Assembly: GCA_964598535.1 (NCBI GenBank)
Contig: CAZRCI010000005.1
Location: forward strand, 66,287-130,286
Direction of reading: 5' to 3'
Source of the DNA: an uncultured Planctomycetaceae bacterium
GTDB taxonomy: Bacteria > Planctomycetota > Planctomycetia > Pirellulales > PALSA-1355
Length of the DNA stretch: 64,000 nucleotides
Shown: in pieces, positions 15,835 through 55,050 of the stretch
How positions within the stretch are numbered: the first letter of the stretch is position 1
Layout of the letters: each line of letters begins with the position of its first letter
Program-made: the position numbers and the translations under genes
Notes under the pieces: model-generated
What the model was told of the DNA's origin: nothing
Seen by the model: only the letters and a program-made list of their open reading frames with translations
Database searches by the model: none

Positions 15835-16605
15835 GCCATCGCGAAAGCGAGCGGCCGGCTGCGCGCCGCGCTGAGAGATACACCACAAACGTCGTTCGTA
15901 AGGCGTGCGCGTGCGAACGTGGAACGTGCGCGCCAACTGGCTGCCGCTGGGAGGCAACGGTTGAGCGGAAGCGCCCCAAGCGCCGAGAATATCGCGCCAT
16001 GCCTCACCGCGGCGCATGAAGCGAATGTGGATCGGATCGAAGCCGTACCAATGCGGTTGGTGCATGACAACCGCCAGGTTTCGTTCGGCCGCGAGGCGCG
16101 TGACGTGCCCGTCAAGCGCGGTCGCGCGGCGCGTTATTTCCGGCAGGGTGATACGGCTCAAAGGATACAGAATCGAACGCAGGAGCTTGAATTTGGCCGG
16201 CGAAAGACGCTCGATGTTTGCCAGCGGCAAACGCGTGATCGTCGTTTGGGCGTCGATGGCCGCCAATCGGTCGAGACAGGCTTCGAGCCAACCGACAATC
16301 CGCGTGACGGGCTCCTCGTAAAGCAGGTCGTTTCCGATATCGGTGAGGAGCGCGGCGGTGGGAAGTCGCGGCGCCGCTTGAAGCTCGGGCCATAAGCCGC
16401 AGGCTTCGATGCCGGGGAGCCCCAGCCCCAGGATTCGCGTGTGGCGGCCGTAGGATCGACCATGTCCCAGGGCTGCGTGAACTTCAAGCGGTTCGCCCCA
16501 TAGTCGAGCCGCGGTTTCGAGTACTGTGCCGATACCCTTGGTCAGATTGCTCGCGCCCAGCAAGACGACGCGGCGCGTGGGCACAAGCGAGCGCGAATCA
16601 CGCAT
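15814..16605 (-). CDS. SGNH/GDSL-like hydrolase
   Basis: Block motifs are LLGASN (Ser), TDIGNDLLY (GxND) and GFDPIHI (DxxH). The start is taken at ATG 16605-16603 (MRDSRSL...), which overlaps the upstream stop as TGATG. The longer ORF-track start overlaps the M50 gene. Confidence 0.8.
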   Translation of the reverse strand: MRDSRSLVPTRRVVLLGASNLTKGIGTVLETAARLWGEPLEVHAALGHGRSYGRHTRILGLGLPGIEACGLWPELQAAPRLPTAALLTDIGNDLLYEEPVTRIVGWLEACLDRLAAIDAQTTITRLPLANIERLSPAKFKLLRSILYPLSRITLPEITRRATALDGHVTRLAAERNLAVVMHQPHWYGFDPIHIRFMRRGEAWRDILGAWGASAQPLPPSGSQLARTFHVRTRTPYERRLWCISQRGAQPAARFRDGTHVSIY

Positions 16606-17345
16606 CAGCGGTAACCTCCCCAGCCGCCACCGGTGTAGGCCTGGAGCGTGGCATAGCTGGTGTAGGCCAGGTAACCGCAGAAGAACGTGAGATAACCGTC
16701 TTGCAAACGTGTCCAAGCCAGAACCGCGGCGCCAACCGCGACAAAGATCGACAGCCACAGCGACATCTGCATGCCGTCGCGCGGATTGGCCATTGTGAGC
16801 ACTTCGCTAGAAATGCGTCCTCCGTCGAGCGGCCAGATTGGCAACAGATTCGCCAGGCCCCAGAAGATGTTTACGTACAAAAGGTCGTAGAGCAAGATCG
16901 TCAGGTTGCGGCTCTCGAAACGCTCGAAGATCACCGGCAAACGGGTTTCCGGCCAGCCCCAAGCCACCTCGTGCCCGGAAAGCTTGATGCCGGCCACGAT
17001 CAGCGCGGCGAAGAGAAAGCCCGCGCCTGGGCCAGCGAAAGAGATCAGGATTTGCGCGGCGTGGCTGCGATACGTCGGTCGATAAGACGCGAGGCCGCCA
17101 AAACCATAGAGCGTGATCCAGGGTTGCCAGCCGTGCGCCAGAGCTGCAAAGGCATGCCCGAGTTCATGGATCAGGATGGAGACGAAGACGGTGCCGATCC
17201 ACAGCAAGAGCTCGGCGGGCTGCGGATCGCTGCCTGCGCCGAGGATCGCCGCCACGAGCCAAAAGAACGGATGCACGCGCACCGGAATGCCAAAGAGGCT
17301 GAAGCACAGGTCGTAGGGCGTCCGATTCGGTTCGGTGAGCAGCAC
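16605..17345 (-). CDS. M50-family (site-2 protease-like) membrane metalloprotease
   Basis: 246-aa polytopic protein with HELGHAF zinc motif and a downstream LPIWPLDGG motif. Confidence 0.88.
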   Translation of the reverse strand: MLLTEPNRTPYDLCFSLFGIPVRVHPFFWLVAAILGAGSDPQPAELLLWIGTVFVSILIHELGHAFAALAHGWQPWITLYGFGGLASYRPTYRSHAAQILISFAGPGAGFLFAALIVAGIKLSGHEVAWGWPETRLPVIFERFESRNLTILLYDLLYVNIFWGLANLLPIWPLDGGRISSEVLTMANPRDGMQMSLWLSIFVAVGAAVLAWTRLQDGYLTFFCGYLAYTSYATLQAYTGGGWGGYR

Positions 17346-37995: not shown

Positions 37996-39945
37996 TTAGA
38001 GCGGCTCGCCGTTCCAGCGCACGAAGCCTTCGAGGGCGAAGTATTCAGGGAGGCCAAATTGATTGTAAACCGCGGCCGTGTTGCGATTGCGGTCTTCGGC
38101 ACGCTGCCAGAACTCGCGCGGATCGTCCGGTCCCGGAAACAGGGCCGAGTCTTTTTGCGACTCGTGCATGAAGATCGCCTGGCGCTTTTGTCGCAGGTCG
38201 CGCGGCGAGAGCGGAATGGCGATTTCAATTTCGTGCGGAGCCCATTCCTGCCAGGCGCCGCGATAGAGCAGCACCTCGGGGCGCGAACCGGTGTCGCGTT
38301 CCAACTCGTACATTGCGCGGAAGATCGCTTCGGCACAAACGCGGTGTGTGCCGTGTGGGTCCGAGAGGTCGCCGGCCACATAGATCTGCGCCGGCTGTAC
38401 GCGCTCGACCAATTGACGAACGATCGCGACGTCTTCCTCGGTGATTGGCTTCTTGGCGATCGTGCCGGTTTGATAGAACGGCAGATCGAGAAAGTGCAGG
38501 TGCTCCTCGCGACAGCCGGCCACGATGGCGCCGGCCTTGGCTTCGCTCCAGCGGATGAGCGCCTTGATCTTGAGCACTTCGGGACTATCGCTCTCGCCGG
38601 CGCCCTTGGTGGCGACCGCCCGGGCCACGCTGTCTTCAAGGGCCGGGGAACGATCGCTATCGATGCCGAACAGGCGGTTATATTCGGTGACCATGTCGGC
38701 GATGCGCACGGCGTCGTGATCGAACACCGCGATGTTGCCGCTGGTCATGTAGGCGACGTGGACTTCGTGCTGGTCTTCGACCAGGCGGATGAGCGTGCCG
38801 CCCATCGAGATCACGTCGTCGTCCGGGTGCGGGCTGAAGCAGATGACTCGTTTATGCTCGCGGCCTGCCGGATGGTATTCGATCGTGTCCATCATCCAGC
38901 GAAACACGCGATGCGCCACGCGTTCCGCCGGGCCGTGATGACGCAGCAGTTGGTGCAGGTTGTGCTTGCGAAAGTCGTCGTCGTCGAGCATCAGCAGGGC
39001 CTTGCCCGACTGTTCGCAGAGCCAGAGCACGGCTCGCTTGATCAGGACGTCGGTCCATTCGACCTTGCCGAGCAGCCACGGCGTGGTCGTGGCGGTAAGC
39101 TTGCTGGCGGCGGCGGTATCGAGCAGCAGCGTGGCGTTGGCGTGCTCGCGCAGGTAGCAGGCGGGAACGCGCGGCGTGGCGGGGGCTTCGGCCGTTTCGC
39201 GAATCACGCCGGCTTTGTGTTCGCCCTGCGCGATGAGCAGAATCTTGCGCGCGTCGAGAATCGTCCCCAGCCCCATCGTGATGGCTTGTGTGGGAACATT
39301 TTCTTCGCTGAAGAAATCGCTGGCCGCGTCGCGCCGGGTGAGCGGGTCGAGCGTGCAGACGCGGGTCCGGCTGTCGCGCGTGCTGAACGGCTCGTTGAAC
39401 CCAATGTGGCCGTTGCGGCCGATGCCCAGGATCTGCAGATCGATGCCTCCGGCCTCGCGTATCTTGGCTTCGTACCAGCGGCAATAGTCGTCGAGTTTTT
39501 CGGGCGGGGTGAGCCCGTCGGGGATGAAAATGTTCTCGGGCTTGACGTTGATGTCCTTGAACAAGTGTTCGTGCATCCAGCGGCGGTAGCTTTGCAGGCG
39601 ATCTTCGCCGAGGCCGAGGTACTCGTCGAGGTTGAACGTGACGACGCCGGAGAAGTCGAGCCCCTCGTCCTTATGGAGCCGGGCAAGTTCGCGGTAGATG
39701 CCGACCGGCGTGCTGCCGGTTGGGAGACCGAGGACGGCCCGCTGTCCAAGCGCGGCGCGGTCGCGAATGACGCCGGCGATCATTCCGGCGACGAAGCGGG
39801 CAAGTTGTTCGTGCGAATCGAAGACGTACGTGGGGAGGGCGGTGCCCACGAGCGGGCCCAGTGGCGGCGTGTCGATCATCGGAGCAAGGAGGTTCCCAAA
39901 GCCATGTGGAATGGAACCATCGAGTATGGCGAATTGAGGGCGCAA
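37996..39945 (-). CDS. nagB: Long-form glucosamine-6-phosphate deaminase (NagB domain fused to LmbE/PIG-L-like domain)
   Basis: The N-terminal ~260 aa are NagB-like (LGLPTGSTPVGIY, FNLDEY, GIGRNGHIGFNEP). The C-terminal half carries the PIG-L signature (FSPHPDDDVISMGGT...HVAYMTSG). The start may instead be ATG 39879. Confidence 0.88.
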   Translation of the reverse strand: MRPQFAILDGSIPHGFGNLLAPMIDTPPLGPLVGTALPTYVFDSHEQLARFVAGMIAGVIRDRAALGQRAVLGLPTGSTPVGIYRELARLHKDEGLDFSGVVTFNLDEYLGLGEDRLQSYRRWMHEHLFKDINVKPENIFIPDGLTPPEKLDDYCRWYEAKIREAGGIDLQILGIGRNGHIGFNEPFSTRDSRTRVCTLDPLTRRDAASDFFSEENVPTQAITMGLGTILDARKILLIAQGEHKAGVIRETAEAPATPRVPACYLREHANATLLLDTAAASKLTATTTPWLLGKVEWTDVLIKRAVLWLCEQSGKALLMLDDDDFRKHNLHQLLRHHGPAERVAHRVFRWMMDTIEYHPAGREHKRVICFSPHPDDDVISMGGTLIRLVEDQHEVHVAYMTSGNIAVFDHDAVRIADMVTEYNRLFGIDSDRSPALEDSVARAVATKGAGESDSPEVLKIKALIRWSEAKAGAIVAGCREEHLHFLDLPFYQTGTIAKKPITEEDVAIVRQLVERVQPAQIYVAGDLSDPHGTHRVCAEAIFRAMYELERDTGSRPEVLLYRGAWQEWAPHEIEIAIPLSPRDLRQKRQAIFMHESQKDSALFPGPDDPREFWQRAEDRNRNTAAVYNQFGLPEYFALEGFVRWNGEPL

Positions 39946-46526: not shown

Positions 46527-48872
46527 CTACGGCGAGAATTTTGCCCAGAAGGGGTGCTGGCGATCGCCGCGGGTGCGGACATCGTCTAAGAGCACGTTCA
46601 GGTTGGGCGAAACGTCGGCCGTGTGGCGGCGGCCTCCCAGGTGGACGTCGATCTTGTCGCGTCCGGGATTGAGCATTTCGGGCGCGAACCAGATCGTGGC
46701 GGAGACACCGGTGCCGGGCACGTAGATGTCGCCGTTGGCTTGGATCTTCGCGCGGACTTCCGCGGCGCGGATACCGCGACCGGGCGGCCAGTTGACCGGC
46801 TCGACGATCGAACGCGGCGGCAGCTTCTCGATTTCGAGCCACCAGAAGTAATTGTCCCAGGTTCGCATCGTGGTGACCGTGAACTCTTTGGGAAAGAAAT
46901 TCCGGTCCGGCTTGCGCGCCATCCAATCGAAGATCTCTTTTATCTCTTCATAGAAATCTTCGTGGCCGCGGCCTTGATACTCGACGACCGTGACGTCGTG
47001 GCGGTGAACCATATAGCGATCGAGATCGCGCGAGTTTTCCTTCAGCTTGTCGCCGTCCAGCTCGCCACACACGAGATAGAATGGCACCATGCCCGCGTTC
47101 GGCCAGTAGTGCGAGCAGTATTTCTTGCTTTGGGCAACGATTGGAATGACGCCCGCCCAGAGATCCGGATGCGCGAGCCCGATATCCCAGGCCGCGTCTC
47201 CGCCGGCGGAGTGCCCGGAAAGAAACACACGGTCGGTGTTGATCGAGAACCTGCGGCAGGCGTCGCGGAGACTGGCGAGCACCGTGGCATGCTCCCGGGC
47301 CGAAAAGCCGTAATCGCGTTGGCCCTCGGTTAGCCAATTGACGGCGATCACGATATAACCGAAGCGGCTGGCCTGTCCCAGACGCTGGCCATTGTCCATT
47401 CGGGCACCGGCCCACCAGTCGATTTGATGCTCGGGCGTCGAGCCCACGCCGTTCAGGGTGACGATCGTGGGATAACGCACATAGGGATCGTATTCTGGCG
47501 GAAGCTGCACGTAGTAGGTCGCGTCGGGCTCGGTGTCCATCCCGATCGGCACTTGCAGCGTGTGGAAGCCCGGCGTTTCGGCCGAAGAAGCCGGCGTTTC
47601 CAGCGGGGGCTTCATGTGGGCAATGAGCTTGGCCACCAGCGAAATCGCGGCGCCTTCCATCGTGCGTAGCTCTTGCTCGATCTCGTTTCTTCGCAAGGCC
47701 ACGGGCTCGTTCATGTAGCGGCGGATCAGGTCGCGCACGCGGGCCGTCGACGCGGTGACCAGCAGGCTGGTTTCCGCGGAGTCCGCGCCAAGCAGCCAAC
47801 CGCTGATCGCAATCGACAGCCGTTGCTCGTCCGTGAGGCTCTTGTCGTCGCGCAAGCGGAAGTAGCCCGCAAGGCGATCGAAGTTGCCCAGGCTCATCTC
47901 GGCGGCCATCTCATTGATGATGGCTTCGCAGGTTGCGCGGTCGGGACCGTCCGGCAGGACTTCCACGAGTTTGTGGAGTTCGGCGGCGACCAGGTCGCGG
48001 CGCTCGCGCACCTGTTCATATTGCTGGACCATCTCGCGCACTTGAGCAAGCGTTTCGCCCGCGACGTCGTCGGTGGGAAAGTTTTGCAACAGGCCGTAGG
48101 CCAAAAAGTGCTGGCCCGACTTGCGCCGCAATTCGATTTCCTCGACGATGCTGCGGGCATGCATCTGGCGCAGCGAGCGGACCTCGGTCGCAAGTTCTCG
48201 CTGATCCGGAAAGTCGGCGATGACGACTTCCAGTTCTTTTTGAGCGTCCTGATAGCGCTCGGCTTGAAGGAGCAAGCGGACGACGCGCAGGCGAGCGTCG
48301 AGATTGTTTCGCGAGGCGTTGTTGACCAGGATCTTGTGCAGCGTGTCGCGCGGAATGGAGCTGGTGGCGATACGCATGTCCCAATTGAGCGGCGTAAGCT
48401 GTGAGGTTTGCAGCCCTTCGACCTTGGTCCAGCGCGGCGTGACGAGCGTGATTCCCTGAATAATATCGAGCGGCCCCTTGTCGGTATTCATGGTGAACAC
48501 GCGACGGCCGTATTCGTCGAAAGGAGAGACTTTGAGAATGGGGCCGACCCGATTCACGCGCCCGCCACCGCTGGCGGTACGCTGGTTGATCGCTACTTTC
48601 TCGAGAATGCCGCCCGAGTTCACCTCGTCGACCGCCTGAATCTGTGAGGTGGGCACGAACACGCGCCGCAGGTCGTCGTCGATGAACGTGATGGTGGCCG
48701 GGACGCCTTGCTGGTTGTTCTGCGGGTTGTCGGCCAGTCCCGCGGTCTTACCGAGCCGGCCGGTGAGCCGGCGGCCGTCCTTCATGATGACGTTCGAGCC
48801 GAACGCGTCAGCAGCGTTTAGAAGCAGCGCGAGGGCGACAAACAGTCGCAAACTGGGACGACACAGGTTCAT
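46527..48872 (-). CDS. Large exported protein with C-terminal alpha/beta-hydrolase (esterase/peptidase-like) domain
   Basis: Start taken at MNLCRPSLRLFVALALLLNAADA (signal peptide). A nucleophile-elbow GHSAG (VFLSGHSAGGDAAW) lies in the last third. The middle is helical and TPR-like. Confidence 0.8.
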   Translation of the reverse strand: MNLCRPSLRLFVALALLLNAADAFGSNVIMKDGRRLTGRLGKTAGLADNPQNNQQGVPATITFIDDDLRRVFVPTSQIQAVDEVNSGGILEKVAINQRTASGGGRVNRVGPILKVSPFDEYGRRVFTMNTDKGPLDIIQGITLVTPRWTKVEGLQTSQLTPLNWDMRIATSSIPRDTLHKILVNNASRNNLDARLRVVRLLLQAERYQDAQKELEVVIADFPDQRELATEVRSLRQMHARSIVEEIELRRKSGQHFLAYGLLQNFPTDDVAGETLAQVREMVQQYEQVRERRDLVAAELHKLVEVLPDGPDRATCEAIINEMAAEMSLGNFDRLAGYFRLRDDKSLTDEQRLSIAISGWLLGADSAETSLLVTASTARVRDLIRRYMNEPVALRRNEIEQELRTMEGAAISLVAKLIAHMKPPLETPASSAETPGFHTLQVPIGMDTEPDATYYVQLPPEYDPYVRYPTIVTLNGVGSTPEHQIDWWAGARMDNGQRLGQASRFGYIVIAVNWLTEGQRDYGFSAREHATVLASLRDACRRFSINTDRVFLSGHSAGGDAAWDIGLAHPDLWAGVIPIVAQSKKYCSHYWPNAGMVPFYLVCGELDGDKLKENSRDLDRYMVHRHDVTVVEYQGRGHEDFYEEIKEIFDWMARKPDRNFFPKEFTVTTMRTWDNYFWWLEIEKLPPRSIVEPVNWPPGRGIRAAEVRAKIQANGDIYVPGTGVSATIWFAPEMLNPGRDKIDVHLGGRRHTADVSPNLNVLLDDVRTRGDRQHPFWAKFSP

Positions 48873-48929
48873 GCAAGGCTCTTCTGGACCTGGTGCCTCA
48901 CGCGAGCGCAGACTCAATCGCGCTCGTGG

Positions 48930-48962
48930 CGGACAGAATGCGTCGGCACGGACAGAATGCGT
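48930..48962. repeat. 14-bp direct repeat x2 upstream of the 781-aa exported-protein gene
   Basis: CGGACAGAATGCGT at 48930-48943 and 48949-48962, with a 5-bp spacer. It lies 58-90 nt upstream of the ATG at 48872. Confidence 0.6.
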
Positions 48963-49243
48963 TCTTCTCTGTGGGATTGTACGCCCGCCGGGGTTCCGGG
49001 CCTGCAAGCGTTCCCAGATTTTATTGTGTTCGAGGCCGAGGGAGAGTCAACCGGGGAAGGCTCGCCGGACAAGCAGAACTGGCTGCGGAAAAACCGGCAT
49101 AATACGACGGCCTGACGCGAGTCTTTTGCGGCAATAACGAATTCGTGCTCCGTCGTTTCGGGGGTAGCCTTTTTTGGGGGAGAGCGAATAAATCTCTATC
49201 GGGCTGCTGAAAAGGGTCACGACGGCCCTTCGTCGGCAACCTG

Positions 49244-51193
49244 CTAGCCCGGCGTGTCGAGATAGGGGTCCTGGCCCATCTGGAGTTGGAGCTTTTTCCG
49301 CTCTTTCTCGTGATACATAAGCACTTTGCGATCGAGGAAGTGGCGTTTTTCCAACTTGTACTGGGCCCGGTTGAATATTTTGGCCAGGTGATCGTAGCGT
49401 CCGGGATTGTCGTGGCCAAATTCATGGTAGTGCTTGGCCTTGTCCGGCCCGAGGCCCAGTAGCAGTTCGTCTTCCAGCGAGAGGTAGACACGGTACGAGC
49501 CGGGGTCGCCCTGACGACCGCAACGCCCGACGAGTTGCCGATCGATGCGGGCCGAGTCGTGCATTTCGGTCATGATCACGTGTAGACCGCCGAGTTCGTG
49601 TACGCCTTCGCCCAGCTTGATGTCCGTTCCGCGGCCGGCCATGTTGGTCGAGACGGTGACTCGGCCTTGGCGACCTGCCTTGGCGACGATCTCGGCTTCC
49701 TCGGCGATGTGGTTGGCGTTCAAGACGTCGTGATCGATGCCACGTTGCTTGAGCAGGTGCGAGATGATTTCCGACTTGTCGATGGTGCGCGTGCCGATCA
49801 GCACGGGCCGGCCCGTGGCGTGAACCTCGATCACCTCATTGACGATCGCGTGCCACTTTTCTTCTTCGGTTCCGAAGACATAATCGGGCAGCCGTTGGCG
49901 AATCGCCGGGCGGTTGGTGGGAATTTGCACGACCCGGAGCTTGTAGATCTTTTTGAGCTCGCCGGCCGAGGTGATGCCGGTACCGGTCATGCCGGCCAGA
50001 TGCGGATAAAGATGGAAGTAGTCCTGGACGGTGATTCGCGCGGCCTGGCCCGCCTCGGCCGTGACCTCGACGTCGGCTTCTGCGGCTTCGACGGCTTGGT
50101 GGAGTCCTGCGCGCCATTTGCGTCCTTCTGCGGCGCGACCGGTGAATTCATCGACGATGACAACCTCACCATCGCGAACGACGTACTGGCGGTCGCGGAT
50201 GAACTCGCGGTCGACCTTGATCGCGCGTTCGATGTATTCGTAAATGCTGAACATGCCGACGGCGTGCATTTCATCGGGTTTGGGCAGGTTCCGCACCAGA
50301 CGCCGCCCCTCGGGCGTTAGTTCCACGCTTTTGCGTTCGTGGTCGTAGTCGTAATGTTCGTCCTCTTTAAACTGATTGGCGACGCCAGCAGCCCATTTGT
50401 AGCACTCGACGGCGATGAGCTGCGCCTCGCTGGGCAACGCGCTGATGATGAGCGGCGTGCGAGCTTCGTCGATCAAGATGCTGTCAGCCTCGTCCACCAG
50501 CACGAAATACGGAGTGCGCTGCACGGGGCGTTCGCCGCCTTCGCCGCTCATGCCGAGCATCGCGCCCAGGAAGTCGGTTTGACCTTCGCCGATGCGGCGC
50601 ATCAACAAGCGATCGCGCAGAAAGTCGAAGCCAAACTCCTTGGCCGTGCCATAAGTGATGTCGCACTCGTAGGCCTTGCGGCGCTGGTTTTGGTTCATTT
50701 GGGTTTCGACGATGCCGACCGTGATGCCCAGGCTCTCATAGAGCGGTTTCATCCACTCGGCATCGCGCCGGGCGAGATAGTCGTTGACCGTGGCCAGATG
50801 CGCGCCTTTGCCCTCGAGCGCGGCCAGGTAGAGCGGCAGCGTAGCGGTAAGCGTTTTGCCTTCGCCCGTTTGCATCTCGGCGATCGAGCGATTGTGCATC
50901 GCGATGCCGCCCAGGATCTGCACGTCGAAATGACGCATATTGAGCGTGCGGCGGCCGGCTTCCCGCACCAGGGCGAACGCCTCGGGCAACAGCCGCTCCG
51001 AGGGCTCGTGGCTCTTGAGCCGGTACCGGAGCGAAAGGCTCCGCTTGCGCATGTCGTAGGCGTTGAGATTTTGGAGCTCTTCTTCGAAACTCGCCACCTT
51101 AGGCAATACAGATTGCCAATGCGCAAGCTGGCGGTGGGCCATGCCGCGAGAGACGGATTGCAGGCTCGAACGCAGGCTATCGGCTATCGACAT
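49244..51193 (-). CDS. secA: Truncated SecA-family ATPase (SecA paralogue, about 649 aa)
   Basis: Start taken at MSIADSLRS. Motifs: Walker A MQTGEGKTLTATLP; DEAD-like LVDEADSILIDEARTPLIISA; NBD2 GRPVLIGT...TNMAGRGTDIKLG...GRCGRQGDPGS. The protein ends about 80 aa after NBD2. Confidence 0.9.
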   Translation of the reverse strand: MSIADSLRSSLQSVSRGMAHRQLAHWQSVLPKVASFEEELQNLNAYDMRKRSLSLRYRLKSHEPSERLLPEAFALVREAGRRTLNMRHFDVQILGGIAMHNRSIAEMQTGEGKTLTATLPLYLAALEGKGAHLATVNDYLARRDAEWMKPLYESLGITVGIVETQMNQNQRRKAYECDITYGTAKEFGFDFLRDRLLMRRIGEGQTDFLGAMLGMSGEGGERPVQRTPYFVLVDEADSILIDEARTPLIISALPSEAQLIAVECYKWAAGVANQFKEDEHYDYDHERKSVELTPEGRRLVRNLPKPDEMHAVGMFSIYEYIERAIKVDREFIRDRQYVVRDGEVVIVDEFTGRAAEGRKWRAGLHQAVEAAEADVEVTAEAGQAARITVQDYFHLYPHLAGMTGTGITSAGELKKIYKLRVVQIPTNRPAIRQRLPDYVFGTEEEKWHAIVNEVIEVHATGRPVLIGTRTIDKSEIISHLLKQRGIDHDVLNANHIAEEAEIVAKAGRQGRVTVSTNMAGRGTDIKLGEGVHELGGLHVIMTEMHDSARIDRQLVGRCGRQGDPGSYRVYLSLEDELLLGLGPDKAKHYHEFGHDNPGRYDHLAKIFNRAQYKLEKRHFLDRKVLMYHEKERKKLQLQMGQDPYLDTPG

Positions 51194-51399
51194 GAACACA
51201 CCGAAGAAACATGCGGACGGAAACCTCCCGGAAGAGCCACGCAACGCGTTGAATCGCAAATCAAGGCATTGCGACTAACAGACTTATTCTATCTTACGGC
51301 GGCCCGCTATTGCTGCAATTGGCCGATTTTTCCGCCTGCGCGGCCGCCATGAGCCTTCCCAGCGTTGTCGAGCATCGCCAGCGTGGAGATAGGCAGTTT

Positions 51400-52755
51400 T
51401 TAGCGGGTCTGCCGAGTGATTTTGCCGATCGCGTAGTGCGGGGCAAAACCGCCGGCCGACGCCCCATCGACCAGGGTTCCTTGGACTTCGACGAGCTCAC
51501 CCGGCTTCAGATCGTTCAGAGCAGGGGAGTGGACCAAGATGACGCTGCCGCCGTACCGGTCTGTCTGACCGTCGATAGGGATGTATCGTAACTTCCATTG
51601 CCGCTGCGAATTGGAGTATTCGAGCCGGCCGCGGAGCGTGCGGTAGTCGGGAGTGTGGCCAAACGTCGCGCTCGCCGCGCCGGAAGCCGCCGGCTGAAAC
51701 GCCGCTTGAACGACGGCGTTTGAGTGGGAAGCCTCGGGCGGGGATACGAACTTTGCGACATTGCCGTTGCTAGACGCCGTGGACACGGCCAGGTTCTGTC
51801 CCGACGCCGGAGCGTTTTCGACCGTCGTGCGAACCGTGGGCGTGGCCGCGCCCGCGGTGATCCGCAGCACGGAAGAATTGCTCGGCGGTTCGAAGGGCAT
51901 CTTGGGAGCGAGCGCTACCTGCGATGTGGGAGACGACGCTACGAGCGGTGAAGTAGTCGGAGGCGAGGACTCGCCAACGATGCGCAACGAGTTTCCTTCA
52001 GCATGCGGGGTAACTGAGAACGGTCCAGGCGGGTCGCCCCGGCTCGTACCCAGACTGAGACGCGTCGGAGCGGTGACCGGCGGTTCCAAGGGCTTGGAGA
52101 CAGGCTGGCGCGGAAGCGGGCTGGCTTGAGCAAGCGGTTGCGCGACCGGAGGCGCGGCCGCTGACGGCGAGGGATCGGGGCGGAGTGCCCTAGGTTCTTG
52201 GGACGCCACGCCGGTCTCGCTGGCCTTCGCCGTCACATAGGGATTTTCGATAATCGGCGCCGGCGACATTGGGCCGGAAACGCGAATCGGAGCCGGTTGA
52301 ACATAGGTTGCCTGAGTAACGCTCGCGGGGGCGCTCGCATCGCCTGGGGGCATGATGCCACCGGCCAGTCGCACCGCGTTGGCGGCAGGCACTTCTGGAG
52401 GCGGATCGTTCGAGCTTTGATGGAACAAGAAGGACCCGCCAGGGTATCGGAACTGATCGCCCTGAGGGGTCACAGTGGGCGGCGTTGCCATTGGCGCAAC
52501 GGCTGGCGGTGCAACAGGACTCACAGGAACCGGCTGCGTCGTTACGGGGGCCGGAGTGGTTACGACTGGCGCAGGCTGAGTCACCATCGGCGGTGAGATG
52601 CCCTGAGCATACGGTTGGCCCGGAGTGACCAGTACGCCCGAGGACGTGGTTGGCGGAGTGACCGTGGTTCGCAAGAACGGGTTCGTCGCCGGCTGATTCG
52701 ATTGGCAACTTGCCAATGTGGCGGCGGTCAGTAGGACCACCCAGTACCGCTTCAT
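51400..52755 (-). CDS. Pro/Thr/Val-rich lipoprotein with a globular C-terminal domain
   Basis: Start MKRYWVVLLTAATLASC (lipobox LASC). About 350 aa of P/A/S/T/V-rich low complexity, then a ~90-aa conserved-looking domain (LRGRLEYSNSQRQWKLRYIPIDGQTDRYGGSVILV). Confidence 0.7.
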   Translation of the reverse strand: MKRYWVVLLTAATLASCQSNQPATNPFLRTTVTPPTTSSGVLVTPGQPYAQGISPPMVTQPAPVVTTPAPVTTQPVPVSPVAPPAVAPMATPPTVTPQGDQFRYPGGSFLFHQSSNDPPPEVPAANAVRLAGGIMPPGDASAPASVTQATYVQPAPIRVSGPMSPAPIIENPYVTAKASETGVASQEPRALRPDPSPSAAAPPVAQPLAQASPLPRQPVSKPLEPPVTAPTRLSLGTSRGDPPGPFSVTPHAEGNSLRIVGESSPPTTSPLVASSPTSQVALAPKMPFEPPSNSSVLRITAGAATPTVRTTVENAPASGQNLAVSTASSNGNVAKFVSPPEASHSNAVVQAAFQPAASGAASATFGHTPDYRTLRGRLEYSNSQRQWKLRYIPIDGQTDRYGGSVILVHSPALNDLKPGELVEVQGTLVDGASAGGFAPHYAIGKITRQTR

Positions 52756-53013
52756 CGGACGAACTCCTTTTCGTCGAGGTGTGCGGCTGCTAACCAATAG
52801 GCGATCGGTCGTGAGGAGCCCTTGTGCAAACCCTCACGGCCGAAATAGATGCGCAACCGACTTATTCGATCGAACGTGTGAACACACGGAAGGACAGGGA
52901 TCTTCCCCCTGCGCATAGGCAGGGGGCGAATAGAATAGCGAATGGCGTGGGTTGGTCCAGAGCGGTTTTAGTGGCGCGGACCGCCGCCCCGTGGACCGCG
53001 ATCGCGCCCGATG

Positions 53014-53463
53014 CTACTTGCTGCTAGCAGTTTGGGCTGCCTGGACAAACGGATTGTAGTAGATCCGCGGCAGACTCGCCGTATGATCGACCGGCGCGGC
53101 GACCGGAGCCGGAGTGGCCGTTTGCTTATTTTCCGGTGCCGAGGCGGGCGTCGTCACCGGTTCGACAAACGGGTTCTGGTACTCGACGGATGCCATCTTG
53201 GGTGCGGCTGCGGGAGTTATCGTTCCCGGCGGATAGGCAAACGGGCTATAGCCGTAGGTGCGCGCGACAGGATAGCTATAGTAGACCGGAGGAAACATCG
53301 AGTAATACGGCACGCGGTAGACATTGGCATACGAGCGCGAGCCATAGTTGAAAAAGCCCAACCCGTAGCCCCCCGCACCAAATTGAGCCGCCGCTTCGGA
53401 AGTCTGCAAACTCATTGCCAGAAGCACGCCACAACCGATCCACAGACTTGCTCGACGAAACAT
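53014..53463 (-). CDS. Small exported Tyr/Pro/Gly-rich protein
   Basis: 149 aa with signal peptide MFRRASLWIGCGVLLAMSLQTSEAAA. It contains 15 Tyr, 12 of them within about 45 residues. Confidence 0.65.
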   Translation of the reverse strand: MFRRASLWIGCGVLLAMSLQTSEAAAQFGAGGYGLGFFNYGSRSYANVYRVPYYSMFPPVYYSYPVARTYGYSPFAYPPGTITPAAAPKMASVEYQNPFVEPVTTPASAPENKQTATPAPVAAPVDHTASLPRIYYNPFVQAAQTASSK

Positions 53464-53907: not shown

Positions 53908-55050
53908 ATGTCCGATCAAACGCTTACCTCCGCGCTCAAAGCCGAAGCCAAGCAGCTTGGTTTCACGCTAGCCGGGGTGTGCGCGGCGGTCGAGCCGGCG
54001 GGAATCAGCCGTTTTGGCGAGTGGCTCGCCGCGGGTTATGCGGGCGAGATGCACTATCTCTCGGGACGCGCCACGGCGTATTCGCATCCGCGTTACGTTC
54101 TGGACGGTGCGCGAAGTATCGTCATGCTTGGCTTTCCGTATCGTACTTGCGAGCCCATGGTCGCTCAACCGGCGCAAGGGCGCGTGGCCCGTTACGCTTG
54201 GGGAGCAGACTATCACGACATATTGTGGCAGAAGCTGAAGACGCTGGAGCGGTACTTGCTGGCGCGAGCGCCCCAGGCGGCGGTGCGCACGGTCGTCGAT
54301 ACCGCGCCGCTCTTGGAGCGCGAGTTCGCGCAGCTTGCGGGGGTCGGTTGGATCGGCAAGAACACCTTGCTTCTCAATAAACATGAGGGAAGTTATTTCT
54401 TCCTGGCGGCGTTGCTCACCAGCCTGGAATTGGAGGCCGATGTGCGGCACGAGGCCGAGCATTGCGGCACATGCCGGGCATGTCTCGATGCGTGTCCGAC
54501 AGATGCGTTTGTCGCGCCTTACGTACTCGACGCGCGGCGGTGTATCAGCTATCTGACAATCGAGCTCAAGTCGCCCATTCCAACCGAACTGCGTACCGGC
54601 CTGCAAGATTGGGTGTTTGGCTGTGACGTGTGCCAGGAGGTTTGCCCCTGGAATCATAAGCCGCGGACAACCGCGGAACCGTCGCTTCGGCCTCGCGATG
54701 AAACGACGCTCGACCTGGTTCAACTGTTCTCACTCGATGAAGCAGCATTCCGCGCGAAGTTTCGCGACACTCCGCTATGGCGGCCCAAACGCCGCGGTAT
54801 CCTTCGCAATGCAGCGATTGTACTCGGAAATCAGCGAGCGGCCGAAGCGATTCCAGCGCTCATGCGTGGACTCGACGATGACGAGCCATTGGTGCGCGGG
54901 GCGTGCGCGTGGGCATTGGGGCGATTTCACGAACCATCCGCAATCGCCGCGCTGCGTGTACGATTCGACGTCGAACGAGACGCGGCCGTGCATGCAGAAA
55001 TCGCCGCGGCGCTCGGACTCGCGTTGCCGAGCTCGCTGGAAGGAGAGTAA
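53908..55050 (+). CDS. queG: Epoxyqueuosine reductase
   Basis: 380 aa with Fe-S motifs CGTCRACLDACPTDAF and CDVCQEVCPWN, plus C-terminal HEAT-like repeats (DDDEPLVRGACAWALGRF). Confidence 0.93.
   Translation: MSDQTLTSALKAEAKQLGFTLAGVCAAVEPAGISRFGEWLAAGYAGEMHYLSGRATAYSHPRYVLDGARSIVMLGFPYRTCEPMVAQPAQGRVARYAWGADYHDILWQKLKTLERYLLARAPQAAVRTVVDTAPLLEREFAQLAGVGWIGKNTLLLNKHEGSYFFLAALLTSLELEADVRHEAEHCGTCRACLDACPTDAFVAPYVLDARRCISYLTIELKSPIPTELRTGLQDWVFGCDVCQEVCPWNHKPRTTAEPSLRPRDETTLDLVQLFSLDEAAFRAKFRDTPLWRPKRRGILRNAAIVLGNQRAAEAIPALMRGLDDDEPLVRGACAWALGRFHEPSAIAALRVRFDVERDAAVHAEIAAALGLALPSSLEGE

What the first reader, a model, noticed from the sequence alone, without database searches (positions are those of the whole stretch)
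49244..51193. SecA paralogue truncated right after NBD2
The ~649-aa protein has complete DEAD-motor motifs: MQTGEGKTL, DEADSILIDEARTPLIIS, TNMAGRGTDIKLG and GRCGRQGDPGS. A PPXD-sized insert is also present.

Only about 80 residues follow NBD2 (…FNRAQYKLEKRHFLDRKVLMYHEKERKK…). Canonical SecA proteins are about 900 aa in E. coli. After NBD2 they carry the long scaffold helix, the helical wing domain, the two-helix finger that inserts into SecY, and a C-terminal Zn/SecB-binding tail.

This paralogue therefore appears to lack the parts thought to push substrate into SecY. A full-length SecA is presumably encoded elsewhere in the genome. I recall that Planctomycetes are annotated with SecA1/SecA2 pairs, but the function of the short form is, as far as I know, uncharacterised.
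Basis: partly seen in the sequence, partly recalled or inferred. Interest (0 to 1): 0.55.

Follow-up and report, generated by a model that had tools for sequence, protein, structure and literature searches.

The report
Short SecA motor lacking its C-domain
This is a real, conserved, shortened copy of the protein-export motor SecA that keeps the ATP engine and substrate clamp but lacks the parts that push proteins into the SecY channel; it belongs to a family first described in 2015 that probably powers a separate, still untested, envelope-spanning secretion module.

Summary
Window 49244-51193 (-) encodes a 649-aa SecA homologue with intact ATPase motifs and a PPXD. It ends inside the first scaffold helix, near E. 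coli residue 661. HWD, two-helix finger and zinc tail are absent.

The truncation is selected: the stop position and a C-terminal GQDPYLD peptide are conserved in hundreds of relatives.

The kind is already published: "secondary SecA_DEAD domain proteins" (Kamneva et al. 2015, PMC4452313), reported next to HlyD, M50 and GAF genes. That linkage is absent within this 64-kb window.

New here:
- Relatives 45-65% identical, with the same tail, sit in operons SecA, GAF-HlyD, MFP, M50-HlyD.
- The window's stand-alone Pirellulales clade is nested among these linked copies.
- Conversely, 15 of 19 well-flanked M50-HlyD modules lack an adjacent SecA, and two inspected have no other ATPase nearby.

Best reading (confidence 0.55): a separately encoded ATPase motor for an ABC-less, type-I-like secretion module. 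Rivals: a SecYEG-directed accessory or regulator, or a ribosome-associated chaperone.

I could not test whether this genome also has a canonical secA or the module. Verdict: new member of a known, experimentally uncharacterised kind; interest 0.4.

The parts
49244..51193 (-). Coding sequence of the short SecA: 649 aa plus the stop codon at 49244-49246.
   Evidence: ORF list; Pfam SecA_DEAD, SecA_PP_bind and P-loop_SecA; identical protein P0001 in public data.
51194..51259 (-). Possible 22-codon N-terminal extension from an upstream TTG. Probably not translated.
   Evidence: The ORF list gives a TTG start at 51259. Homologues begin at or after the ATG-equivalent position.
50438..51142 (-). NBD1, first segment (aa 18-252). 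Includes Walker A MQTGEGKT (50852-50875) and the DEAD motif VDEADSILIDEARTPLIIS (50441-50497).
   Evidence: Pfam SecA_DEAD 18-414. Motif coordinates. These residues are invariant across 67 short forms of both tail types.
50519..50605 (-). Insertion of about 20 residues (within aa 197-225) just before the DEAD motif, relative to canonical SecA. Low model confidence. The segment RIGEGQTDFLG is conserved within the Pirellulales clade.
   Evidence: Gap opposite T. maritima SecA in the alignment. pLDDT below 50 for aa 208-219. Clade invariants E203, G204, D207, G210, M212.
50045..50437 (-). Preprotein cross-linking domain, PPXD (about aa 253-383).
   Evidence: Pfam SecA_PP_bind aa 263-369, E 2.9e-29. 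Secondary structure of the model.
49940..50044 (-). NBD1, second segment (aa 384-418), with motif III GMTGTG (49976-49993).
49469..49939 (-). NBD2 (aa 419-575), with motif V TNMAGRGTDIKLG (49610-49648) and motif VI GRCGRQGDPGS (49496-49528).
   Evidence: Pfam P-loop_SecA and Helicase_C. Motif residues invariant. Three arginines that are nearly invariant in full-length SecAs (query 544, 548, 555) are replaced here.
49394..49468 (-). Linker with two short helices between NBD2 and the scaffold helix (aa 576-600).
   Evidence: Model secondary structure. Poorly conserved in both short and long SecAs.
49280..49393 (-). Retained N-terminal part of the long scaffold (HSD) helix, aa 601-638. Corresponds to about E. 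coli 613-650.
   Evidence: Single helix H601-638 with block-mean pLDDT 79-95. Query 629 aligns with E. coli 641 and B. subtilis 601. E. coli HSD is 611-670 and HWD is 671-754 (PMC5603524).
49247..49279 (-). Conserved C-terminal tail MGQDPYLDTPG (aa 639-649). It replaces everything from the end of the scaffold helix onward.
   Evidence: Nearly invariant in the 27 related loci where the tail could be read. 104 of the 120 closest proteins end in G[QL]DP[YFH]LDxx. The motif recurs down to about 42% identity.
51400..52797 (-). Context: upstream gene for a Pro-rich lipoprotein (lipobox LASC). Its N-terminus and its C-terminal ~90-aa domain are conserved. It lies directly upstream of the stand-alone short SecA in most Pirellulales relatives.
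   Evidence: Synteny by tblastn. No Pfam family. A functional link is not shown.
53014..53463 (-). Context: small Tyr/Pro-rich secreted protein (149 aa), conserved in the same neighbourhood together with the divergently oriented queG gene (53908-55050, +).

Best explanation
The gene encodes a catalytically competent, SecA-derived ATPase. It consists of NBD1, PPXD and NBD2, about 38 residues of scaffold helix, and a conserved C-terminal GQDPYLD peptide. It belongs to the 'secondary SecA_DEAD' family.

Most likely it does not drive proteins through SecYEG. I propose it is the cytoplasmic motor of an ABC-less, type-I-like envelope-spanning module. The module has three membrane proteins: a PqqD-like/M50/HlyD inner-membrane protein, a GAF-HlyD protein and a membrane-fusion protein. 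In some organisms a TolC-like outer-membrane protein is also present.

The proposed mechanism is that the motor grips unfolded, probably very large, surface-protein substrates in its PPXD-NBD2 clamp and feeds them into that conduit using ATP. In this Pirellulales lineage the motor gene has moved away from the module and would act from a separate locus.

Shown:
- the domain anatomy and the conserved truncation;
- intact ATPase motifs;
- descent from module-linked copies;
- the reciprocal pattern of modules without an ATPase and motors without a module.

Inferred:
- physical interaction with the module;
- the nature of the substrate;
- any role of the C-terminal peptide as a docking handle;
- presence of the module in this genome.
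For: Anatomy:
- Pfam domains.
- Alignment to SecA ends at E. coli ~641, and the protein ends at ~661.
- AlphaFold model has pLDDT 86.9 and pTM 0.81, with helix 601-638.
- Foldseek hits are all SecAs, 120-300 residues longer. The best TM-score is 0.81, to SecY-engaged 6itc_A.

Selection:
- Walker A, DEAD and motifs III, V and VI are invariant across 67 short forms.
- Stop position and tail are conserved.

Family link:
- Type-B short SecA is the last gene, with an 8-bp overlap, of an operon: giant protein, MFP, OEP, GAF-HlyD, M50-HlyD (L031).
- Type-A copies with the same tail as the window are operon-linked in Pirellula sp. (L040/41), a Pirellulaceae MAG (L042), L036 and L024.
- Linked copies 59-65% identical to the window protein exist: L059, L068, L073, L105, L067.
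- In an NJ tree the stand-alone clade that includes the window (n=21, bootstrap 0.86) is nested within a grade of linked copies.

Reciprocal pattern:
- Of 19 well-flanked M50-HlyD loci, 16 keep GAF-HlyD and 15 keep MFP, but only 4 have the short SecA adjacent.
- Two SecA-less modules have no ABC or other ATPase within 10 kb.

Literature:
- The same association was proposed in PMC4452313.
Against: - No M50-HlyD, GAF-HlyD, MFP or OEP homologue lies in the 64-kb window or within 10 kb of 28 stand-alone relatives. Whether this genome has the module at all was not testable.
- Adjacency is patchy in both directions. The M50-HlyD module may work without this ATPase, or the stand-alone copy may have taken on another job.
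- SecA-N68 still binds SecYEG with high affinity and binds signal peptides. The retained scaffold-helix part is one of SecA's ribosome-binding regions (PMC6620043). A Sec- or ribosome-related role is therefore not excluded.
- No experimental data exist for any member.
- The trees are simple neighbour-joining trees.
Confidence: 0.55

Rival explanations
1. SecYEG-directed accessory or regulatory SecA. The short form docks on SecYEG through NBD1, PPXD and the scaffold helix. It then either cooperates with the full-length SecA on particular substrates, as mycobacterial SecA2 does, or acts as a natural N68-like competitor that tunes channel occupancy.
For: - Engineered SecA-N68 binds SecYEG with high affinity, binds signal peptides and has constitutive ATPase (PMC5603524).
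- The model superposes best on SecY-bound SecA conformations (6itc_A TM 0.81, 5eul_A 0.80).
- The PPXD is well conserved.
- The gene is stand-alone here and in 28 relatives.
Against: - The two-helix finger and IRA1 are absent, so it cannot translocate by the known mechanism (N68 cannot translocate).
- The clade descends from operon-linked copies of a non-Sec module.
- No secY2 or accessory Sec genes are in the window.
- It scores below every curated SecA and SecA2 model.
- The conformation AlphaFold predicts is not evidence of a binding partner.
Confidence: 0.2
2. Soluble, ribosome-associated chaperone or targeting ATPase. It binds nascent or unfolded clients through the PPXD clamp and hands them to other machinery, with no dedicated membrane partner.
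For: [quoted passage not shown]
- The retained helix is strongly basic (sequence).
- ATPase motifs and PPXD are under purifying selection.
Against: - The N-terminal ~20 residues are not conserved in the family.
- This does not explain the recurrent tight operon coupling to membrane proteins in relatives.
- No direct evidence.
Confidence: 0.12
3. Decaying remnant or assembly artefact: a secA copy truncated by a deletion or frameshift and no longer functional.
For: It is shorter than any canonical SecA and scores below all NCBIfam SecA cut-offs.
Against: - The same stop position and a nearly invariant tail occur across the 27 related loci where the tail could be read, and in hundreds of proteins.
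- Catalytic motifs are invariant.
- Coding-type GC3 of 0.77.
- Dozens of 50%-identity clusters of 600-670 aa exist.
- The identical protein is found in an independent assembly.
Confidence: 0.01

Closest known systems
Secondary SecA_DEAD domain proteins (Kamneva, Poudel and Ward, PLoS One 2015, PMC4452313)
   Same: - SecA_DEAD and PPXD are present; SecA_SW is absent or reduced to a fragment.
- The group branches apart from canonical SecAs.
- It was reported in Planctomycetes, including Pirellulales.
- Relatives are encoded next to M50-like, HlyD and GAF proteins (confirmed here).
   Different: - This copy and its clade are stand-alone, in a conserved queG / small secreted protein / lipoprotein neighbourhood.
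- The conserved C-terminal GQDPYLD motif and the two tail types (A, and B ending LAFAG) do not appear in the parts of the paper I read.
- The same holds for the many ATPase-less modules.
E. coli SecA-N68 (engineered residues 1-610; PDB 5k9t)
   Same: NBD1-PPXD-NBD2 without HWD, two-helix finger/IRA1 or zinc domain. Foldseek TM-score 0.69 normalised to the target. N68 has constitutive ATPase, binds SecYEG and signal peptides, and cannot translocate.
   Different: - Natural and under selection.
- About 40 residues longer: it keeps the N-terminal part of the scaffold helix and adds a conserved tail.
- About 20-residue insertion before the DEAD motif.
- Several arginines that are invariant in canonical NBD2 are replaced.
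Accessory SecA2 of Gram-positive bacteria and mycobacteria (PDB 4uaq, 6sxh; TIGR03714, TIGR04221, TIGR04397, NF012136)
   Same: A second SecA paralogue alongside a housekeeping SecA, thought to serve a subset of substrates.
   Different: - From established knowledge, those proteins keep the scaffold domain and two-helix finger and act through SecYEG or SecY2.
- In the PDB they are 778-786 residues long.
- The window protein scores far below their curated cut-offs.
- The mycobacterial SecA2 is the weakest SecA match (E 1.5e-102).
- No secY2 or asp genes are nearby.
Type I secretion systems (HlyB-HlyD-TolC)
   Same: Relatives' operons contain HlyD-type membrane-fusion proteins and sometimes a TolC-like OEP. 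They lie next to giant repeat, cadherin or RTX-like proteins.
   Different: - No ABC transporter.
- The ATPase is SecA-derived.
- The inner-membrane component is an M50-like protein fused to a HlyD domain, with a weak PqqD-like N-terminal hit.
- None of this is encoded in the window.
Canonical SecA (TIGR00963 / NF009538)
   Same: 42-46% identity over the motor and PPXD. All ATPase motifs are present.
   Different: - Lacks the last third of the scaffold helix, plus HWD, two-helix finger/IRA1 and SEC-C.
- 702 bits against a cut-off of 814.

Membership tests
Canonical housekeeping SecA | DEAD-type motor (NBD1 and NBD2) with intact ATPase motifs | tested here: met
   Pfam SecA_DEAD E 6e-107 and P-loop_SecA E 4e-59. 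Motifs located and invariant in the family.
Canonical housekeeping SecA | Preprotein cross-linking domain inserted in NBD1 | tested here: met
   SecA_PP_bind aa 263-369, E 2.9e-29; seen in the model.
Canonical housekeeping SecA | Complete helical scaffold domain with two-helix finger/IRA1, plus helical wing domain (Pfam SecA_SW) | tested here: not met
   No SecA_SW hit. The protein ends at about E. coli residue 661, before HWD (671-754) and the second HSD segment (755-835). Only ~240 nt of non-coding DNA follow the stop.
Canonical housekeeping SecA | Score above the curated equivalog cut-off (NF009538 / TIGR00963) | tested here: not met
   702.1 against 814 bits; 700.2 against 800 bits.
Gram-positive / mycobacterial accessory SecA2 | Score above the curated SecA2 cut-offs (TIGR03714, TIGR04221, TIGR04397, NF012136) | tested here: not met
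   590 against 930; 480 against 725; 641 against 1085; 455 against 1100 bits.
Gram-positive / mycobacterial accessory SecA2 | Linked secY2 and accessory Sec (asp) genes, for the SecA2-SecY2 type | tested here: not met
   Pfam scans of about 55 window ORFs show no SecY or asp-like genes.
Secondary SecA_DEAD domain proteins (Kamneva 2015) | SecA_DEAD present; SecA_SW absent or only a small fragment | tested here: met
Secondary SecA_DEAD domain proteins (Kamneva 2015) | Groups with other short forms, apart from canonical SecAs | tested here: met
   NJ tree of 143 cluster representatives: the clear short forms (<=700 aa) fall outside the full-length group; one 651-aa partial canonical SecA (P0147) falls inside it. 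The tree is rough (NJ, midpoint-rooted, no support values).
Secondary SecA_DEAD domain proteins (Kamneva 2015) | Encoded next to M50-like, HlyD and GAF proteins | tested here: not met
   Absent from the 64-kb window and from the +/-10 kb flanks of 28 close relatives. Met in relatives 45-65% identical with the same tail type. The 2015 paper also notes unlinked cases.
Secondary SecA_DEAD domain proteins (Kamneva 2015) | Is an additional copy beside a canonical SecA in the same genome | not testable with these tools
Full-length SecAs with SecA_SW and SEC-C exist in Planctomycetota, and the 2015 survey reports both forms in planctomycete genomes.
Type I secretion system ATPase component | ABC-transporter ATPase with a transmembrane domain | tested here: not met
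   The protein is a soluble SecA-type DEAD motor. It may work like a T1SS energiser but is not an ABC protein.

The most novel reading that the evidence does not exclude
The short SecA and the GAF-HlyD / MFP / M50-HlyD trio together form a distinct, ABC-independent secretion system. A SecA-derived clamp motor would push giant surface proteins through an M50-like inner-membrane protein and a HlyD/TolC-type duct. In many Planctomycetes the motor would be encoded at a separate locus, as in this window. Its nearly invariant C-terminal GQDPYLD peptide would be the handle that docks it to the module, for example on the PqqD-like cytoplasmic domain of the M50-HlyD protein.
Probability: 0.3. Interest if true: 0.75.

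Novelty: new member of a known kind. Interest (0 to 1): 0.4.

Why it matters
Nature has repeatedly kept a SecA stripped to its motor, clamp and part of one helix. That is close to the laboratory fragment N68, which cannot translocate. It offers a natural test of what SecA's C-domain is for.

If the proposed partnership holds, it would define a secretion route in which a Sec-type motor has been recruited to a type-I-like duct in place of an ABC transporter. The route is widespread in Planctomycetes and also occurs in Proteobacteria, Rokubacteria and Tectomicrobia. It may export the giant surface proteins typical of these bacteria.

For annotation, these genes are routinely labelled 'preprotein translocase subunit SecA'. 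That overstates what is known about them.

Tried and rejected
- **Frameshift or pseudogene:** rejected. The stop and tail are conserved.
- **HWD or finger present in diverged form:** rejected. No residues are left to encode them.
- **Partner genes in the window:** searched with Pfam on about 55 ORFs and with tblastn probes from five independent modules. The only M50 peptidase (16605-17345, 246 aa) is small, 32 kb away, and is not hit by the module probes.
- **First structure prediction:** too poor to use, because the alignment was shallow (pLDDT 61). It was repeated with a diverse alignment.
- **Promoter, terminator and Rfam scans around the gene:** nothing above background.
- **Same-genome co-occurrence with a canonical SecA:** the closest full-length planctomycete SecA I could place (P0509) comes from an unrelated assembly.
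- **Upstream lipoprotein as a partner or monitoring substrate:** synteny is conserved, but so is the unrelated queG gene, and no domain was identified. Left open.
- **bioRxiv 10.1101/202358 on SecA/SecY pairs:** does not cover this family.
Full report
**1. The observation**

Window 49244..51193 (minus strand) is an open reading frame of 649 codons starting at an ATG. An upstream TTG at 51259 would add 22 codons, but homologues start at or after the ATG-equivalent position. Third-position GC is 0.77, as in the other genes of this 61% GC window.

Pfam finds SecA_DEAD (E 6e-107), SecA_PP_bind (aa 263-369, E 3e-29) and P-loop_SecA (E 4e-59). It finds neither SecA_SW (wing and scaffold) nor SEC-C. 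The protein matches every solved SecA at E of about 1e-155.

**2. Where exactly it ends**

Sequence alignment puts query residue 629 opposite E. coli SecA 641 and B. subtilis 601. With the E. coli borders given in PMC5603524 (HSD 611-670 and 755-835, HWD 671-754), the protein ends at about E. coli residue 661.

A first AlphaFold model from a shallow alignment was poor (pLDDT 61). A second, from 67 diverse short forms, was good (pLDDT 86.9, pTM 0.81). It shows NBD1, PPXD and NBD2, two short linker helices, one long helix at 601-638, and an 11-residue tail.

Foldseek finds only SecAs at the top, all 120-300 residues longer. The best superposition is on SecY-engaged SecA (6itc_A, TM 0.81). The engineered fragment SecA-N68 (5k9t) also matches.

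About two-thirds of the long scaffold helix is kept. What is missing is the end of that helix, the HWD, the remaining HSD helices including the two-helix finger/IRA1, and the C-terminal zinc tail. Only about 240 nt of non-coding DNA follow the stop, so the missing parts are not hidden in another frame.

**3. The truncation is selected**

The 120 closest proteins (68-100% identity) are 614-725 aa long (median 651), and none has SecA_SW. Twenty-nine related loci from species-representative genomes, all but one labelled Planctomycetes or unclassified, were examined. In all 27 where the tail could be read, the stop is at the same position, and the last ~33 residues are nearly invariant even where overall identity is 60-65%. 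Those residues read ...RHFRDRKxLMYHEKERKKxQxQMGQDPYLD[TS]P[GAS].

An exhaustive search of 1.8 billion cluster representatives shows dozens of 600-670-aa clusters, down to about 42% identity, that align to the very end of the query.

Two tail types stand out:
- **Type A** ends G[QL]DP[YFL]L[DE]xx. It occurs in Planctomycetes and includes the query.
- **Type B** is about 660 aa and ends L[AG]F[AS]Gxx. It occurs in Betaproteobacteria, Rokubacteria and Tectomicrobia.

In a rough NJ tree the clear short forms fall outside the full-length SecAs; the one exception is a 651-aa partial canonical SecA, P0147. Walker A, DEAD and motifs III, V and VI are invariant across both types. Several residues that are nearly invariant in full-length SecAs are relaxed in the short forms. 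These include three NBD2 arginines at query 544, 548 and 555, and NBD1 residues in the TNNEFGFDYLRDN segment. I read this as loss of contacts with the absent C-domain, which is an inference. There is also an insertion of about 20 residues before the DEAD motif.

**4. What is known**

The family has been described. Kamneva, Poudel and Ward (2015, PMC4452313) named these 'secondary SecA_DEAD domain proteins'. They noted the loss of the wing/scaffold domain and a separate phylogenetic position. They found the genes next to M50-like, HlyD and GAF proteins, and proposed a type-I-like secretion role. Their table lists Rhodopirellula, Blastopirellula, Pirellula and Planctomyces loci with these genes 1-4 positions away.

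I found no experimental follow-up in the searchable library.

The engineered E. coli SecA-N68 (1-610) cannot translocate. It does bind SecYEG with high affinity, has constitutive ATPase and binds signal peptides. SecA's ribosome contacts map to the N-terminal helix and the N-terminal part of the HSD (PMC6620043); the latter is retained here.

**5. Context at this locus**

The window is ordinary chromosome. It holds the nuo operon, a Clp ATPase, Mla, LexA, purB, queG and glycosyltransferases. No HlyD, GAF, OEP or large M50 gene is near the short secA. The only M50 peptidase is small, lies 32 kb away, and is not hit by the module probes.

The neighbourhood that is conserved across most of the Pirellulales loci is queG (divergent), a 149-aa Tyr/Pro-rich secreted protein, a Pro-rich lipoprotein, and then the short secA. 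The downstream 826-aa TPR plus alpha/beta-hydrolase gene is kept only in the closest relatives. No promoter, terminator or Rfam signal stands out.

**6. Context in relatives**

A type-B copy is the last gene, with an 8-bp overlap, of an operon: giant protein (>19,000 aa), MFP, OEP, GAF-HlyD, and a 715-aa M50/HlyD protein (L031).

Type-A copies are also linked to the module:
- Pirellula sp.: SecA, 804-aa GAF-HlyD-like protein, MFP, 751-aa M50-like protein (L040/41).
- A Pirellulaceae MAG: a divergent GAF-M50-MFP cluster, next to a 1,305-aa cadherin/Big_9 protein (L042).
- L036.
- L024, on a contig that also carries mobilisation genes.

The M50-HlyD proteins of these loci are mutually homologous; for example, L036 against L031 gives 28% identity over 572 aa, E 5e-58. 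They carry an HExxH motif. They also show a weak PqqD-like hit at the same N-terminal position in two independent proteins.

Other type-A copies are stand-alone, in Gimesia and in L035.

**7. The reciprocal test**

I scanned metagenomes with an alignment of M50-HlyD proteins and kept the best 80 loci. Ten have a short SecA in the flanks, all of type A. Five distinct linked copies (L091 duplicates L068) are 59-65% identical to the window protein, in the order SecA, GAF-HlyD, MFP, M50-HlyD. That is as close as the window protein is to its own more distant stand-alone relatives.

In an NJ tree the stand-alone Pirellulales clade that includes the window (21 sequences, bootstrap 0.86) is nested in a grade of module-linked copies. 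Linkage is therefore ancestral, and this lineage carries a relocated motor gene.

Among 19 M50-HlyD loci with at least 8 kb on both sides, 16 keep GAF-HlyD and 15 keep MFP, but only 4 have the SecA. Two SecA-less modules that I inspected in detail have no ABC or other ATPase within 10 kb, and their flanking genes (DUF1559, DUF1501) are of kinds common in Planctomycetes.

Modules without an ATPase and motors without a module are what one expects if the two are partners that are often encoded apart.

**8. Mechanism**

Most likely (0.55): an ATP-driven clamp motor that serves the GAF-HlyD/MFP/M50-HlyD module rather than SecYEG, and is encoded separately from it in this genome. The conserved tail is a candidate docking peptide.

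Rivals:
- A SecYEG-directed accessory or N68-like regulator (0.20).
- A ribosome-associated chaperone (0.12).
- A dead remnant (0.01).

Not shown: that this genome has the module, that it has a canonical secA, any physical interaction, or any substrate.

**9. Membership and novelty**

The protein fails the curated cut-offs of canonical SecA and of all SecA2 models, and it lacks their defining C-domain. It fits the 2015 'secondary SecA_DEAD' family on architecture and phylogeny. It does not show the gene adjacency at this locus.

It is a new member of a known, experimentally uncharacterised kind. The incremental findings here are:
- the conserved C-terminal motifs;
- the derived stand-alone clade;
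- the reciprocal pattern of ATPase-less modules.

Interest: 0.4.

Noticed in passing
window 51400-52797 (-): A Pro/Thr/Val-rich lipoprotein (lipobox LASC) lies directly upstream of the stand-alone short secA in most Pirellulales relatives. Its N-terminus and a C-terminal domain of about 90 aa are conserved. A weak N-terminal match persists in L034, where the rest of the synteny is different. No known domain was found. Whether it is a partner, a substrate or just a neighbour is open.
   Followed up: partly
window 53014-53463 (-) and 53908-55050 (+): A 149-aa Tyr/Pro-rich secreted protein with no Pfam family, and the divergent queG gene, are conserved in the same neighbourhood across about 20 Pirellulales species. 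Since queG is functionally unrelated, synteny alone is weak evidence of function here.
   Followed up: partly
window 50519-50605 (-), aa 197-225 of the short SecA: An insertion of about 20 residues lies just before the DEAD motif, relative to canonical SecA. A conserved RIGEGQTDFLG segment occurs within the clade. Model confidence is low.
   Followed up: no
L031 1-1407 (gene continues beyond the locus): The type-B module is preceded by a gene whose called product is 19,026 aa (1,853 aa on a shorter copy of the contig). The visible C-terminal part is rich in Gly/Asp repeat-like sequence. It is a candidate substrate of the system.
   Followed up: no
L024 5313-5864 and 8119-11886: A type-A short SecA with an M50-like gene directly upstream sits on a contig that also encodes NikA-like and MobC mobilisation proteins, which hints at horizontal mobility. 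The assembly is full of frameshifts, and the record is labelled 'uncultured proteobacterium'.
   Followed up: partly
L031 5861-8008; L036 5489-7717: The M50-HlyD partner proteins give a weak PqqD-like (peptide-recognition) hit at the same N-terminal position in two independent sequences (E about 0.007-0.008). This suggests a cytoplasmic substrate- or leader-binding domain.
   Followed up: partly
P0140 (representative search): A 4,930-aa protein contains a SecA-like motor region at residues 2971-3547 (34% identity to the query). It is a giant fusion protein of unknown nature.
   Followed up: no
L034 9989-10812: A barstar-ribonuclease (barnase-like) gene pair lies immediately downstream of the short secA in one Pirellulales genome.
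   Followed up: no
window 37996-39945 (-): A second ORF of exactly 649 aa is a glucosamine-6-phosphate isomerase/6-phosphogluconolactonase-type domain fused to a PIG-L deacetylase domain. It is unrelated to SecA, and the equal length is a coincidence. A 727-aa antisense ORF overlaps it and is probably not a gene.
   Followed up: partly
window 46527-49007 (-): The downstream gene encodes a secreted 826-aa protein. It has a TPR region and a C-terminal alpha/beta-hydrolase-like domain (GHSAGG nucleophile elbow), with only weak Pfam hits. It is syntenic only in the closest relatives.
   Followed up: partly
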